Source: an uncultured Methanosarcinales archaeon
GTDB lineage: Archaea > Nanobdellota > Nanobdellia > Woesearchaeales > UBA12501
NCBI GenBank assembly: GCA_964397315.1
Contig: CAYNHV010000015.1
Location: 1-34,009, forward strand
Length of the DNA stretch: 34,009 bases
Direction: 5' to 3'
Shown: one piece after another, positions 24,001-27,000 of the stretch
Layout: every line of letters starts with the position of its first letter
Numbering within the stretch: position 1 is the stretch's first letter
Program-made: the position numbers

Positions 24001-27000
24001 ATAGTGATGGCTGTGGCCAACAGGGCATTGTCAGCCCCCATCAACATATGGAATGACCACCAGGACAGCATCTCAGAGAGGGACTCCGGATGGGTGCAGT
24101 TGTATGTGGAATCAGCGCAGGAGGCCTTGGATACTATTATACAGGCTTACAGGATAGCAGAGAGCAGGAACGTGCTGATGCCTGTCATGGTCTGCCTTGA
24201 CGGCTTCACCCTGAGCCACCTCTGGGAGCCTGTTGACGTGCCGACCAAGGCAAAGGTGAACCAGTTCCTTCCAAAGTACAGGGCCAACCACGCTTACCTT
24301 GACCCGAGAAAGCCAATAACGCAGGGGCCTGTGGGATTCCCTGACTCTTTCATGCACTTCAGGAAGATGCAGCAGGACGCAATGGCTAATGCCCTTAAGG
24401 TAATCACAAAGGCAAACTCTGAATTCAGGAGAAAGCTGGGAAGAAGCTACGGTAACGGCCTCATAGAGGCGTACAGGACAAAAGGGGCGCAGTATGCAGT
24501 CGTTGCAATGGGCAGCGCGTGCGGCACAGCCAGGCACGTTGTTGACACTATGAGAAAAGAGGGGAAGAAGGTTGGCATGATAAAGGTGAAATCCTTCAGG
24601 CCTTTCCCTTCAGAGGAAATCATAAAGGCGGCAAAAGGGCTCAAGGGCCTTGCTGTGCTGGACAGGAATGTATCCCCAGGAAATGGGGGCGCCCTGGCAG
24701 CTGAAATAAGGTCAGTTCTCAAAGGCAGCAAGACAGCAGTCTCAAGCTTCATAGCAGGGCTTGGAGGAAGGGACATAACCCCTGAGGATATTAAGGATGC
24801 GTTGTCAAAGTCCATGAAGCAGAAGAAAGCTGATGAGAGGTGGATATTGTGACAATGATAAACAATATCCCCACAGAAGAGCACTTTGCGTCAGGCCACA
24901 GGGCATGCGCTGGCTGCGGCCAGTCCCTTGCAGTGAGAATGGTCATGAAGGCGGCGGGCAAGAACACCATAGTGACAAACGCCACAGGCTGCCTTGAGGT
25001 ATTCTCAACACCATACCCCGAGACATCATGGAGGGTTCCCTGGATACACGGCGCGTTTGAGACAGCAGCAAGCGTCGCCTCAGGTGTTGATTCCGCCCTG
25101 AGAAAGCAGAAGAAAAGGAGCAAGGTGAACATTCTTGCCCTTGCAGGAGACGGCGGAACATTTGACATAGGCCTGCAGGCCCTGAGCGGAGCTGCGGAAA
25201 GAGGCCACAAATTCACTTATGTGTGCTTTGAGAATGGGGCTTACATGAACTGCTTAAGCCTTGATTCATTGATAATGACAGAAAAAGGGCTTAAGAAAAT
25301 AACTGAGGTTAAGGTTGGTGAGAAAGTCTATGCTTATAATCAGAAAGATGGCAGTCTTGTAATGAAGAAATGCACCGGAATATTTGACAACGGCATAAAA
25401 GATGTTTTTGAATTGAATACTTTACATCATACAATAAAAGCAACTTCCAATCATCCATTCCTTGTTTTGAAAAGGAGAGGGAGGGGAAGAATATCACATT
25501 TTATATGGAAAGAACTTGAGAATCTGAAGAAAAATGATGAAATTGTAGTGCTTAAGAAGCTTAAGCCAGGAAAAAGCTTTCAATTTAGGCAGATAAAGCT
25601 TTCTAAGAAAGGAGATTATAAGGTGAATAAAATAAATAATCTTAAGATTCCCCGGAAAAGCTCTGAAGAGCTCATGGAGTTCCTGGGATTGTATGTTGGA
25701 GACGGCTGGGTCAGGCCAAAAAAGGCAGAAACAGGGTTTGCTCTGCCTAAAGGTTCAAAGGGTAGCAGAAAACTGATGCATGTTTACAAAAGACTGTTCA
25801 GAAAGAGCCTGACTCAAAAGGACAAGAATTACATATACATCTATTCCATTAATCTGGCAAGATTCATAGACTCTCTTGGATTCGGCAGTGGAGCAAAGGA
25901 CAAAATAGTTCCTGGGTGGGTGTTTACACTGCCTGACCAGGAGAAGGAAGCGTTTATCAGGGGTTTGATGTTATCCGATGGATACAGGATTAACAACAGC
26001 CATAGATATGTTTCTGCAAGCTATAATCTATTGAGAACCCTGAGATTGTTGTTGCAGACAATTGGATATCAGGTTGGAAAAATCCACCAGCAGACCAAGA
26101 AAAAAGGGACGCATATTGTGTACAGGCAGTTGCTGGAGGACTCTACCTATGGGTACATCTGTTTCAGCAGGAAAAAAAAGGCAAACCTGTCTGACTATCT
26201 TTCTCAAGCAAAACAGAGGGATTTCCTGGCCGATAATGAGCATTTCAGCACTGAAAAGGTAAAATCCATAAGATTTGTTAAAGAAGAGCCGACCTTGGAC
26301 CTGAGGGTTGAAGGGGAGCATAACTTTGTTGCAGACGGCATAGTCGTTCATAACACAGGAATCCAGCGCAGCGGAGCAACACCAAAATACGCCTCAACAA
26401 CAACAAGCCCTGCTGGAAAGAAAGTCCACGGCAAGATGGAATTCAAGAAGAACATGCCTCTCATAATGGCCGCCCATGGGTGCTACGTTGCAACAGCCAG
26501 CGTGGCCTTTCCTCACGACCTCATAAAAAAGGTGCAGAAGGCTCTTAAGCATGAGGGCGTGTCCTACGTGCAGGTGTTCTCGCCCTGCCCCATAGGATGG
26601 GGGCTTCCCAGCAACCTCTCAATAGAGATAGCAAAGCTCGCTTACAAGACAAAGGTAACTCCCCTCTTTGAGGTGGAGAACGGCATTGTCTCAATAACGA
26701 ACAGGCCCTCAAAAGAGCTTCCTGTAGAGGAGTATCTCAGCAAGCAGAAGAGGTTCAAGCACCTGAACCAGAAGGAGATTGAGGATGTGCAGTCTCATGT
26801 GGATTCAGAATGGGAGAAGCTTGTGAATCTTGAGGAGTCACGGGCAGGATTGTCATAATACTGCAGCATCAGAATATTAACCTCCTTTAACCTCTTGTAT
26901 GGAGCATATCTCACCATCTCACTTTCTCCTGTTATTGCCGTTTAGTTTCTTGGTGCGGTCTGAGAAAAACTTTGAAGGCCTGTTTATCCTGCTGAGCTTT

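What a model noticed while it worked through the whole genome (the two positions that open the first line are those of the whole stretch)
24855..26858. Intein with homing endonuclease inside the TPP-binding motif of pyruvate:ferredoxin oxidoreductase subunit PorB
The PorB gene (g00916) is 667 codons instead of ~290 because a 367-aa intein with a LAGLIDADG endonuclease sits between ...GDGGTFDIG-x18-FENGAYMN and TGIQRSG..., i.e. inside the thiamine-pyrophosphate GDG-x(n)-N motif. I read it as a functional, mobile intein at a site not on the usual lists of intein hosts, so that pyruvate oxidation of this fermenter depends on protein splicing. New would be the PorB insertion site (a metabolic, non-nucleic-acid enzyme) and a compact natural intein for tool building.
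Evidence so far: Pfam on g00916: TPP_enzyme_C aa 44-133, Intein_splicing aa 140-500 (E 1e-19), LAGLIDADG_3 aa 364-427; NCBIfam intein N- and C-terminal splicing regions; PorB of M. jannaschii (298 aa) aligns over aa 1-659 around the insert. Junctions read from the sequence: ...YMN|CLSLDS...VVHN|TGIQ (Cys1, His-Asn, +1 Thr). Six-frame search with the intein alone in 120 other genomes of the order: 3 full matches of 62-69% identity in open frames of 667-697 aa (G038, G084, G018) and one cut match of 73% (G002); the other hits are 28-38% (other inteins). Further intein-type insertions here: GyrB g00176; a GlmS fragment with LAGLIDADG g01292.
(Added by a program. Inside this text positions count along the whole contig: contig position 1 is position 1 of the stretch shown here. 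"Call 12" and the like, gene names such as g00115 and contig names such as C1 are that model's own, and its searches are not shown. The text may have been shortened before it was handed on; [...] marks where a part breaks off. The agent that wrote the report below was given it as the finding of a first reader that could run no searches.)

Follow-up and report, generated by a model that had tools for sequence, protein, structure and literature searches.

The report
Mobile intein inside pyruvate oxidoreductase PorB
The gene for the beta subunit of pyruvate:ferredoxin oxidoreductase is interrupted, next to a substrate-pocket residue, by a self-splicing intein with a homing endonuclease; the same intein sits at the same spot in many uncultured archaea and bacteria and has moved between them, so it is a real but not unique mobile element.

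Summary
ORF 24855-26858 (+) is PorB (299 aa of extein) interrupted by a 368-aa intein (nt 25251-26354, not 367 aa): Cys1, block B TxxH, two LAGLIDADG motifs, His-Asn end, Thr+1. It follows N132, which aligns with the substrate-pocket Asn996 of the Desulfovibrio enzyme, 5 residues after the end of the GDG-x25-EN thiamine-diphosphate motif.

It is not unique. The same intein at the same site was seen in 80 of 80 fetched species-representative loci (54-79% identity, no internal stop), 48 archaea-labelled and 32 bacteria-labelled; three bacterial contigs were checked by gene content. In the window's genus, two genomes carry it and two have uninterrupted PorB with an intact target site.

Inteins are more alike than their host proteins in 92% of 2701 pairs, the intein and extein trees conflict (AU p 1e-43), and the endonuclease domain is under strong purifying selection (dN/dS 0.03-0.13). 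It is therefore a horizontally mobile, probably active element.

PorB was already listed once as an intein host (Novikova et al. 2016, supplement). Splicing and DNA cleavage remain untested. Verdict: new member of a known kind, moderate interest.

The parts
22412..22966 (+). porG (gamma subunit), first gene of the por operon
   Evidence: Pfam POR, E 7e-41
22963..23346 (+). porD (delta subunit, 2x[4Fe-4S] ferredoxin-like)
   Evidence: Pfam Fer4 families
23343..23651 (+). cutA-like gene lying inside the operon
   Evidence: Pfam CutA1, E 1.4e-30
23701..24852 (+). porA (alpha subunit)
   Evidence: Pfam POR_N E 2.4e-76 and PFOR_II E 1.4e-34
24855..26858 (+). porB precursor gene, 667 codons plus TAA
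24855..25250 (+). N-extein, 132 aa. Holds CxxC (C17, C20), C46, and G98-D99-G100-x25-E126-N127; ends ...AYMN132
   Evidence: alignment to 9bt4_C, 5c4i_C and 1b0p_A
25251..26354 (+). Intein, 368 aa, class 1
25251..25571 (+). N-terminal splicing (HINT) part, intein aa 1-107. Block A starts at Cys1 (25251-25280); block B ...TSNH... at 25434-25460
   Evidence: Limits taken from the natural mini-intein of G248, which keeps aa 1-107 and 308-368; motifs; C1, T65 and H68 kept in 74 of 74
25572..26171 (+). LAGLIDADG homing-endonuclease domain, intein aa 108-307. Motif 1 at 25677-25709 (acid D151); motif 2 at 25950-25985 (acid D243)
   Evidence: Pfam LAGLIDADG_3; D151 and D243 kept in 74 of 74; dN/dS 0.03-0.13; Foldseek matches to HEN-bearing inteins and to I-DmoI
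26172..26354 (+). C-terminal splicing part, intein aa 308-368. Block F at 26292-26333 (D350, H357); block G at 26334-26354, ending His367-Asn368
   Evidence: NCBIfam intein_Cterm
26355..26858 (+). C-extein, 167 aa plus stop. Starts Thr+1 (TGIQRSG...) and holds the ...SPC... cysteine that aligns with the fourth cluster cysteine of the Desulfovibrio enzyme
25227..25250 (+). Left half of the presumed homing site (codons for ...FENGAYMN). The right half is 26355-26378 (TGIQRSGA)
   Evidence: DNA of intein-free alleles of the same genus is nearly identical across this site. The extent of the recognition site is inferred, not measured

Best explanation
The porB gene encodes a precursor in which a 368-aa class-1 intein interrupts the thiamine-diphosphate/substrate loop, between N132 and T501.

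Inferred mechanism (the standard four steps):
1. Cys1 makes a thioester at the N132-C133 bond, helped by block B Thr65 and His68.
2. The hydroxyl of Thr+1 takes over the N-extein, giving a branched intermediate.
3. Asn368 cyclises, helped by His367, His357 and Asp350, and releases the intein.
4. An O-to-N shift leaves a normal N132-T peptide bond and a 299-aa PorB, which assembles with PorA, PorD and PorG.

The released intein is a two-motif LAGLIDADG endonuclease. It would cut intein-free porB alleles at the conserved DNA that encodes DN-x-x-YMN|TG-x-QRS. Repair from the intein-bearing copy then spreads the element (homing).

This copy belongs to one widespread allelic intein lineage. That lineage has moved horizontally among PorB genes of DPANN, Asgard and other archaea and of several bacterial phyla.

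Shown here: anatomy, exact site, distribution, selection, and conflict between the intein and extein histories. Inferred: splicing, DNA cleavage, and that the precursor is inactive.
For: Anatomy
- Family matches.
- Exact in-frame insertion relative to uninterrupted PorB of the same genus (G376, G402) and order.
- C1, T65, H68, D151, D243, D350, H357, H367 and N368 are kept in 74 of 74 non-redundant copies. Thr+1 is present in all 79 loci whose C-junction is present.
- AF2 model: mean pLDDT 83.6. Best Foldseek matches are endonuclease-bearing inteins: TliVMA 7qsu (TMq 0.76, E 7e-23), PhoVMA, PI-PkoII, PI-SceI, PI-PfuI.

Site
- N132 aligns with index 995 of the 1231-residue chain 1b0p_A and 996 of the 1232-residue 7plm_A.
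- This is Asn996, which lines the pyruvate pocket and rotates on substrate binding (PMC5020499, passages read).

Selection
- dN/dS of the endonuclease domain is 0.03-0.13 and of the exteins 0.02-0.14, in the pairs of the 17 compared where dS was not saturated.
- There is no stop in any of the 80 inteins.

Mobility
- In the genus, G401 and G403 carry the intein. G376 and G402 do not, and their target DNA is intact: G376 differs from the joined flanks of G401 at 1 of 48 nt.
- In the order sample, 12 of the 164 genomes with PorB carry it.
- Intein identity exceeds extein identity in 92% of 2701 pairs. Yet the intein is the less conserved partner in the closest hosts (extein at least 90% identical: intein median 86%).
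- The window's intein is 79% identical to that of a bacterial contig (G415:C5, which carries sigma-54, LpxB, Dxr and ComEC), while the exteins are 49% identical.
- An AU test rejects grouping the inteins by their extein clade (delta lnL 259, p 1e-43).
- Intein-free and intein-bearing alleles interleave on the extein tree (8 changes for 9 intein-free rows).
- A mini-intein that has lost the endonuclease exists in G248.
Against: - No experiment: splicing, DNA cleavage and inactivity of the precursor are all inferred.
- Synonymous divergence between most intein copies is saturated. The transfers are therefore more recent than the host PorB divergence, but not demonstrably ongoing.
- The intein tree still separates a mostly bacteria-labelled clade from a mostly archaea-labelled clade (4 label changes in 74 rows). 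Inter-domain jumps are thus few, not frequent.
- Many taxon labels come from record titles. Some are wrong: three contigs titled 'Methanosarcinales' are the same stretches as G137, G038 and G018, which lie in the window's own order.
- Thr+1 inteins are, from recall, often slower splicers.
- The whole-protein NCBIfam PorB score is 386, below the cut-off of 405, because the match is split.
Confidence: 0.85

Rival explanations
1. An old, vertically inherited intein whose endonuclease no longer homes. It persists only because precise deletion from an essential active-site loop is hard.
For: Intein GC tracks host GC (r 0.85), which fits long residence. dS between most copies is saturated. The intein tree keeps a rough bacterial/archaeal split.
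Against: The endonuclease domain has dN/dS of 0.03-0.13, and both catalytic Asp are kept in 74 of 74 copies. Inteins are more alike than exteins in 92% of pairs, although they diverge faster than exteins in close hosts. The AU test rejects congruence. Presence and absence vary within one genus with an intact target site. In several pairs intein dS is well below extein dS, for example 0.35 against 1.0 and 0.52 against 1.53.
Confidence: 0.08
2. A conditional intein that also serves the host. Splicing would be gated by redox state (Cys1 with the invariant Cys41) or another cue, so that the oxygen-labile enzyme matures only under suitable conditions. This is compatible with mobility.
For: Cys41 is kept in 74 of 74 copies, although it is not one of the canonical splicing residues. 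The site is in the active-site loop of an oxygen-sensitive enzyme. Conditional splicing is discussed for other archaeal inteins (PMC4760082 discussion, passages read).
Against: There is no direct evidence. The sporadic distribution (12 of 164 PorB-bearing genomes) and intein-free sister alleles argue against a needed host function.
Confidence: 0.1
3. A non-splicing insertion, so that porB is a dead gene, or an assembly artefact.
For: None beyond the lack of experiments.
Against: The frame is intact. Exteins of intein-bearing alleles are under purifying selection (dN/dS 0.02-0.14). The same architecture occurs in 80 independent assemblies and in contigs of three runs. All splicing residues are present.
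Confidence: 0.02

Closest known systems
PorB (COG1013) intein listed for Ca. Parvarchaeum acidiphilum in Novikova et al. 2016, Mol Biol Evol 33:783 (PMC4760082, supplementary tables; rows seen)
   Same: Same host protein family, in a DPANN-type archaeon; catalogued as an intein-containing protein.
   Different: It is only a table entry, one case. I saw no site, sequence, distribution or mobility analysis, and the main text does not mention pyruvate. I could not check whether it is the same insertion site.
Archaeal VMA (V-ATPase A subunit) inteins with LAGLIDADG endonuclease: TliVMA and PhoVMA (PDB 7qsu, 7qss, 7qst)
   Same: Best structural matches (TMq 0.67-0.76) and sequence-profile hits. Same HINT plus two-motif LAGLIDADG architecture and similar size.
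   Different: 18-20% sequence identity; different host protein and site; the VMA site is in a P-loop ATPase.
PI-SceI (yeast VMA1 intein), PI-PfuI and PI-PkoII: experimentally studied intein homing endonucleases (PDB 1vde, 1dq3, 2cw7)
   Same: Same bifunctional design: a splicing domain that wraps a LAGLIDADG endonuclease. This is the model for the proposed homing mechanism.
   Different: 13-16% identity. Those are larger (428-537 aa), and PI-SceI and PI-PfuI have extra DNA-recognition regions (recalled). Activity has been shown for them but not here.
Inteins in other metabolic enzymes of archaea: GlmS, PEP synthase, UDP-glucose dehydrogenase, MoaA-type radical SAM, SufB (column heads of Novikova's table S2)
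   Same: Precedent for inteins outside replication and repair proteins, inserted at conserved cofactor or substrate sites.
   Different: Different hosts. For none of them did I test whether a single lineage spans both domains as here.

Membership tests
Class 1 intein (HINT splicing domain) | N-terminal Cys or Ser nucleophile at intein position 1 | tested here: met
   Cys1 in the window, in 80 of 80 related loci and in 74 of 74 aligned copies
Class 1 intein (HINT splicing domain) | Block B Thr-x-x-His | tested here: met
   T65-S-N-H68; T65 and H68 kept in 74 of 74
Class 1 intein (HINT splicing domain) | Blocks F and G: conserved Asp and His, penultimate His, terminal Asn | tested here: met
   D350, H357, H367 and N368 kept in 74 of 74. 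79 of 80 loci end in HN; the other is cut by its contig end
Class 1 intein (HINT splicing domain) | Cys, Ser or Thr as first residue of the C-extein | tested here: met
   Thr+1 (TGxQ) in all 79 loci whose C-junction is present
Class 1 intein (HINT splicing domain) | Precise in-frame insertion relative to uninterrupted homologues | tested here: met
   Uninterrupted PorB of G376, G402, G406, G346, G010, G003, G004, G009 and G005 align without a gap other than the intein
Class 1 intein (HINT splicing domain) | HINT fold | tested here: met
   Predicted model only: pLDDT 83.6. Foldseek matches to intein structures and the hedgehog autoprocessing domain. Pfam Intein_splicing at 69 bits against a cut-off of 35.8
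Class 1 intein (HINT splicing domain) | Protein splicing actually occurs | not testable with these tools
   Only indirect: exteins of intein-bearing alleles are under purifying selection
LAGLIDADG homing endonuclease (single-chain, two motifs) | Two LAGLIDADG motifs, each with a catalytic acidic residue | tested here: met
   Motifs at intein aa 143-153 and 234-245. D151 and D243 kept in 74 of 74. Pfam LAGLIDADG_3, E 3e-9
LAGLIDADG homing endonuclease (single-chain, two motifs) | Site-specific cleavage of the element-free allele | not testable with these tools
   Indirect only: element-free alleles with an intact site in the same genus and strong purifying selection on the domain
LAGLIDADG homing endonuclease (single-chain, two motifs) | Sporadic distribution and a history that conflicts with that of the host gene | tested here: met
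   12 of 164 PorB-bearing genomes in the order sample; conflict shown
Pyruvate synthase subunit PorB (NCBIfam NF008819; four-subunit 2-oxoacid:ferredoxin oxidoreductase) | Full-length match to the PorB profile over its cut-off | tested here: inconclusive
   The two halves cover profile positions 4-134 and 130-297. The sum is 386 bits against a cut-off of 405. The uninterrupted same-genus PorB (89% identical exteins) scores 405.7. The next family, VorB-like, scores 310
Pyruvate synthase subunit PorB (NCBIfam NF008819; four-subunit 2-oxoacid:ferredoxin oxidoreductase) | Thiamine-diphosphate motif GDG-x(24-27)-N and the cysteines of the proximal cluster | tested here: met
   G98-D99-G100-x25-E126-N127. 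CxxC, C46 and the C-extein Cys align with solved PFOR chains. Which cysteines ligate the cluster is recalled, not tested
Pyruvate synthase subunit PorB (NCBIfam NF008819; four-subunit 2-oxoacid:ferredoxin oxidoreductase) | Operon with alpha, gamma and delta subunits | tested here: met
   porG, porD, (cutA), porA and porB lie at 22412-26858
Pyruvate synthase subunit PorB (NCBIfam NF008819; four-subunit 2-oxoacid:ferredoxin oxidoreductase) | Pyruvate as substrate | not testable with these tools
   Best family match only. The Asn that lines the pyruvate pocket in the Desulfovibrio enzyme is conserved as N132

The most novel reading that the evidence does not exclude
The PorB intein is both a selfish element that crosses between archaea and bacteria in anoxic communities and a redox-gated switch. 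Cys1 and the invariant Cys41 would form a disulfide under oxidising conditions. That would hold the oxygen-labile pyruvate:ferredoxin oxidoreductase as an inert precursor until the cell is reduced again. The clustering of at least three intein sites in the same 35-residue cofactor loop would then reflect selection for control of this enzyme, not only conservation of the target.
Probability: 0.1. Interest if true: 0.75.

Novelty: new member of a known kind. Interest (0 to 1): 0.42.

Why it matters
Inteins are concentrated in replication, repair and nucleotide-metabolism proteins (PMC4760082). A single intein lineage is fixed here at the substrate/cofactor loop of a central catabolic enzyme, and it is shared by DPANN, Asgard, ANME-1-labelled and other archaea and by Omnitrophota-, Patescibacteria- and Cloacimonadota-labelled bacteria. 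That makes it a clear, countable marker of gene flow between domains in anoxic habitats.

It offers:
- a natural series for studying the homing cycle: empty sites, full inteins, and one endonuclease-free mini-intein;
- a set of about 80 diverged, apparently active Thr+1 inteins and LAGLIDADG enzymes that share one target;
- a warning for annotation. 11 of the 120 best database proteins lack the N-extein, and six of these are named only 'LAGLIDADG family homing endonuclease', so PorB can be missed in metabolic reconstructions of these small genomes.

It does not change how inteins are thought to work.

Tried and rejected
- Earlier findings of the scan were not open.
- My first junction finder by regular expression mis-set or missed many junctions. 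I replaced it with the tblastn coordinates.
- Viral contigs: 36 loci, all 22-47% identical, so other inteins. No PorB intein and no hint of a viral vector.
- Proteins longer than 1168 aa: only P0122 (a PorB with two inteins) and two SufB inteins at 32-33% identity. No single-chain PFOR with this intein was found with this query, which is weak evidence.
- Sequencing runs: three DNA runs of one study hold the stretch, and two of them may be the source. No RNA holder is listed.
- Laying their contigs showed the intein-bearing form only, at depth 4-7, with no joint that skips the intein. Contigs drop rare variants, so this says nothing about intein-free cells.
- The Cys1-Cys41 distance could not be measured because model coordinates are not in the script box.
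- PDH E1 (PF00676) gave one partial match in a 600-aa frame. The family rings in 13 of 14 control genomes, so I left it unresolved.
- Literature searches that found nothing on a PorB intein: 'intein' + 'pyruvate ferredoxin oxidoreductase' (3 papers), 'inteins' + 'DPANN' (4), 'intein' + 'ferredoxin oxidoreductase' (19), 'intein' + 'Woesearchaeota' (3), 'inteins' + 'thiamine' (23, of which 12 listed), 'intein' + 'Parvarchaeum' (1). I read listings only, except passages of PMC3655853 and PMC4853749, which concern other inteins.
- One supplementary file of PMC4760082 (file 1) could not be searched.
- I considered a co-conversion-tract analysis of the extein flanks. I dropped it because the flanks are too conserved at the protein level and synonymous sites are too few.
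Full report
**1. What is in the window**

The + strand carries porG (22412-22966), porD (22963-23346), a cutA-like gene (23343-23651), porA (23701-24852) and a 667-codon porB (24855-26858).

Pfam and NCBIfam split the porB product into PorB halves around an intein. 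PorB profile positions 4-134 and 130-297 match on either side.

The boundaries are N132|C133 and N500|T501. This gives a 132-aa N-extein, a 368-aa intein (nt 25251-26354) and a 167-aa C-extein.

GC falls from 0.54 and 0.51 in the exteins to 0.395 in the intein.

**2. The intein's anatomy**

It has all the parts of a class-1 intein with a two-motif LAGLIDADG endonuclease:
- Cys1;
- block B T65-x-x-H68;
- LAGLIDADG motifs at intein aa 143-153 and 234-245, with acids D151 and D243;
- block F D350 and H357;
- His367-Asn368;
- Thr+1.

In an alignment of 74 non-redundant copies, every one of these nine residues is invariant.

An AlphaFold2 model built on 12 sequences has mean pLDDT 83.6. Its best Foldseek matches are endonuclease-bearing inteins: TliVMA 7qsu (TMq 0.76, E 7e-23), PhoVMA, PI-PkoII, PI-SceI and PI-PfuI. 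A sequence profile also finds DnaB, DnaX, VMA and PI-PkoII intein structures.

**3. Where it sits in the enzyme**

I used the uninterrupted PorB of the same genus (G376, exteins 89% identical) as the query against solved structures. The best hits are a PFOR beta subunit (9bt4_C, E 4e-91), oxalate oxidoreductase beta (5c4i_C) and the Desulfovibrio africanus PFOR (1b0p_A).

The motif is G98-D99-G100, then 25 residues, then E126-N127. The intein follows N132, five residues later, in the loop ...DN-x-x-YMN|TG-x-Q. N132 aligns with index 995 of the 1231-residue 1b0p chain and 996 of the 1232-residue 7plm chain, that is Asn996.

According to Yan et al. 2016 (PMC5020499, passages read), Asn996 lines the pocket around the methyl group of pyruvate and rotates on substrate binding. 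The equivalent residue of the Sulfolobus enzyme affects substrate specificity.

The insertion therefore splits the active-site loop. It also separates the GDG motif and three aligned cysteines (N-extein) from the fourth aligned cysteine (C-extein). Which cysteines bind the cluster is recalled, not tested. That the precursor is inactive is an inference.

**4. Is it the only route for pyruvate?**

In the window's genome (1.47 Mb, 61 contigs, 93% complete):
- the PorB profile finds only this gene, with no weaker paralogue;
- no PFL-like gene was found;
- the only E1_dh hit is a partial match in a 600-aa frame.

So the enzyme probably depends on splicing. The genome is incomplete and the E1 hit is unresolved.

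**5. Relatives in the order and the genus**

A six-frame search of 400 other genomes of the order with the intein gave:
- nine full copies, 62-80% identical, in open frames of 667-697 aa: G129, G137, G038, G335, G084, G398, G268, G174, G018;
- one copy that matches only intein aa 1-107 and 308-368, in a 486-aa frame: G248, a natural 162-aa mini-intein without the endonuclease;
- one copy cut by a contig end: G002.

All are flanked by PorB exteins at the identical site.

The PorB profile at E <= 1e-40 finds PorB in 164 of the 401 genomes, so 12 of 164 carry the intein. This tally includes ten genomes flagged as unpublished, none of which bears the intein.

Among four other genomes of the window's genus, G401 and G403 carry the intein. 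G376 and G402 have uninterrupted 299-aa PorB. The DNA across the empty site of G376 differs from the joined flanks of G401 at 1 of 48 positions. The target is therefore intact in the intein-free relatives.

**6. Distribution beyond the order**

Against 5.8 billion clustered proteins, 521 match the intein at E <= 1e-30. The 120 listed are all at most E 1e-146 and, apart from the window's own protein (100%), 60-83% identical. Of them, 109 carry TPP_enzyme_C together with Intein_splicing. The other 11 are shorter entries without the N-extein.

In one genome per species (GTDB), 168 stretches encode relatives. I examined the best 80 (54-79% identity). In 80 of 80 the intein follows Y-[M/S/Q]-N. No intein has a stop. 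The 79 loci that reach the C-junction end in His-Asn followed by TG; 78 of these read TG-x-Q, and in L086 the residues after TG are masked.

By record title, 48 loci are archaeal: Woesearchaeota or Nanoarchaeota, Heimdallarchaeota, Bathyarchaeia, Aenigmatarchaeota, Micrarchaeota, Iainarchaeum, Ca. Forterrea and ANME-1. The other 32 are bacterial: Omnitrophota, Parcubacteria or Patescibacteria, Cloacimonadota, Aerophobetes, Chloroflexi and others.

Titles of some third-party assemblies are unreliable. Three contigs titled 'Methanosarcinales' are the same stretches as G137, G038 and G018 of the window's own order.

I therefore checked bacterial hosts by gene content:
- Sigma-70 genes are present in all five bacterial genomes tested.
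- The intein-bearing contig of G412 carries bacterial topA, dprA, PBP2, mreB, mreC and alr.
- That of G411 carries pgeF, dinB, ispE and glmU.
- That of G415 carries sigma-54, lpxB, dxr and comEC.

The intein is truly present in both domains.

**7. Evidence for horizontal movement**

I compared 74 rows: G000, G129 and 72 of the 80 loci. L064, L068, L072, L082, L084, L086, L091 and L108 were left out for short, cut or masked flanks.

- Intein identity exceeds extein identity in 92% of 2701 pairs.
- For extein identities of 30-60% the intein median stays near 60%.
- For hosts with exteins at least 90% identical, the intein median is 86%. When co-inherited, the intein is thus the faster-evolving part.
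- The window's intein is 79% identical to that of the bacterial contig G415:C5, whose exteins are 49% identical.

The extein tree has two deep PorB-like clades. Both match the PorB profile best, and each holds both archaeal and bacterial hosts and intein-free alleles (8 label changes for 9 intein-free rows).

The intein tree instead groups most archaeal hosts from both clades together. Forcing the 31 inteins whose exteins are in clade I into one group is rejected (delta lnL 258.8, p-AU 1e-43).

Against a picture of free exchange, the intein tree needs only 4 changes of the domain label. Inter-domain jumps are few.

**8. Selection**

I computed Nei-Gojobori estimates for 17 close pairs. Where dS is not saturated:
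- dN/dS of the exteins is 0.02-0.14;
- dN/dS of the whole intein is 0.03-0.10;
- dN/dS of the endonuclease domain is 0.03-0.13.

In several pairs intein dS is well below extein dS: 0.35 against 1.00, 0.69 against 1.72, 0.52 against 1.53, and 0.86 against 1.73. This fits inteins younger than their host alleles.

Intein GC is lower than extein GC in 70 of 70 loci (mean difference 0.094) but tracks host GC (r 0.85).

**9. Reading**

This is a functional splicing element, and its endonuclease has been kept active throughout the lineage. It is one allelic intein lineage in a homing cycle: empty sites, occupied sites and one decayed mini-intein are all observed. It has spread across very distant hosts because its target encodes an almost invariant active-site loop.

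Splicing and cleavage themselves were not and cannot be shown here.

**10. Prior knowledge**

Novikova et al. 2016 list 'POR/PorB, 1, COG1013 (C), Parvarchaeota' among archaeal intein hosts, with Ca. Parvarchaeum acidiphilum in their table (PMC4760082, supplement file 2; rows seen). The main text does not mention it, and one further supplementary file could not be searched.

Six other literature searches found nothing on it. JGI's automatic names already call such proteins '...beta subunit/intein/homing endonuclease'.

The host is thus catalogued. The site, its breadth, its inter-domain spread and the selection on it are, as far as these searches go, not described.

**11. Side observations**

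PorB has at least two more intein sites in the same loop:
- L047 has a second intein at GDGG|C...N|SYDIG.
- L050 (protein P0122, 1231 aa) has a second intein ending ...SN|CYDNEAYMN, eight residues before the main site.

The window's genome also has a mini-intein in GyrB and two further LAGLIDADG frames.

Noticed in passing
L047:61-1500 (+) (record JAHIMK010000007.1): This PorB carries a second intein-like insert with LAGLIDADG_3, placed inside the GDG motif itself (GDGG|CYSEDT...SLNGN|SYDIG), in addition to the YMN|TG intein. Pfam Intein_splicing scores only 21 bits, below the cut-off.
   Followed up: partly
L050:1-1500 (+) and protein P0122 (1231 aa; record CAYHAE010000023.1): This PorB has two inteins 8 residues apart. 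The upstream one ends ...FVISN|CYDNEAYMN, with Cys+1. Intein_splicing matches in 2 stretches, and LAGLIDADG_3 has E 1e-18. PorB's cofactor loop is therefore a small intein hotspot, with at least 3 sites within about 35 residues.
   Followed up: partly
L013:2104-2589 (+) (G248:C10): A natural 162-aa mini-intein at the same PorB site. It keeps intein aa 1-107 and 308-368, and the endonuclease domain is cleanly deleted. The open frame is 486 aa.
   Followed up: partly
window 23343-23651 (+): A cutA-like gene (CutA1, E 1.4e-30) lies inside the por operon, between porD and porA. Its start overlaps the porD stop.
   Followed up: no
L149:1687-4092 (-) (G000:C2): The genome's GyrB (802 aa) carries a mini-intein of about 150 aa (aa 451-599) in front of the Toprim match.
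   Followed up: partly
L150:848-2071 (+) and L150:2079-3815 (+) (G000:C32): A 408-aa frame with a LAGLIDADG_3 domain ends 5 nt before the start of an apparently complete glmS (579 aa). It could be a free-standing or decayed intein-derived endonuclease.
   Followed up: no
L151:1423-1668 (+) (G000:C13): An 82-aa frame with a partial LAGLIDADG_3 match lies between a response-regulator gene and a DEAD-box helicase gene. It is probably an endonuclease remnant.
   Followed up: no
L109:11152-13185 (+) (G412:C6, Patescibacteria-labelled): Here the intein-bearing porB follows glmS, a HAD phosphatase and glmM rather than porA. No PorA family hit appeared among the frames of at least 200 aa scanned in 40 kb at E 1e-10. 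The two downstream frames have no NCBIfam match.
   Followed up: no
database proteins P0013, P0023, P0031, P0036, P0037, P0042, P0044, P0047, P0055, P0085, P0114: 11 of the 120 best database entries are about 390-540 aa and lack the N-extein. Six are named only 'LAGLIDADG family homing endonuclease'. The gene callers or annotators appear to have truncated or misnamed PorB, which could hide pyruvate oxidoreductase in metabolic reconstructions.
   Followed up: no
L041, L042, L073 (record titles) against L004, L003, L010: Three third-party-assembly contigs titled 'uncultured Methanosarcinales archaeon' are the same stretches as G038, G137 and G018, which the genome tool places in the window's own order. 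Such titles cannot be trusted for taxonomy.
   Followed up: yes
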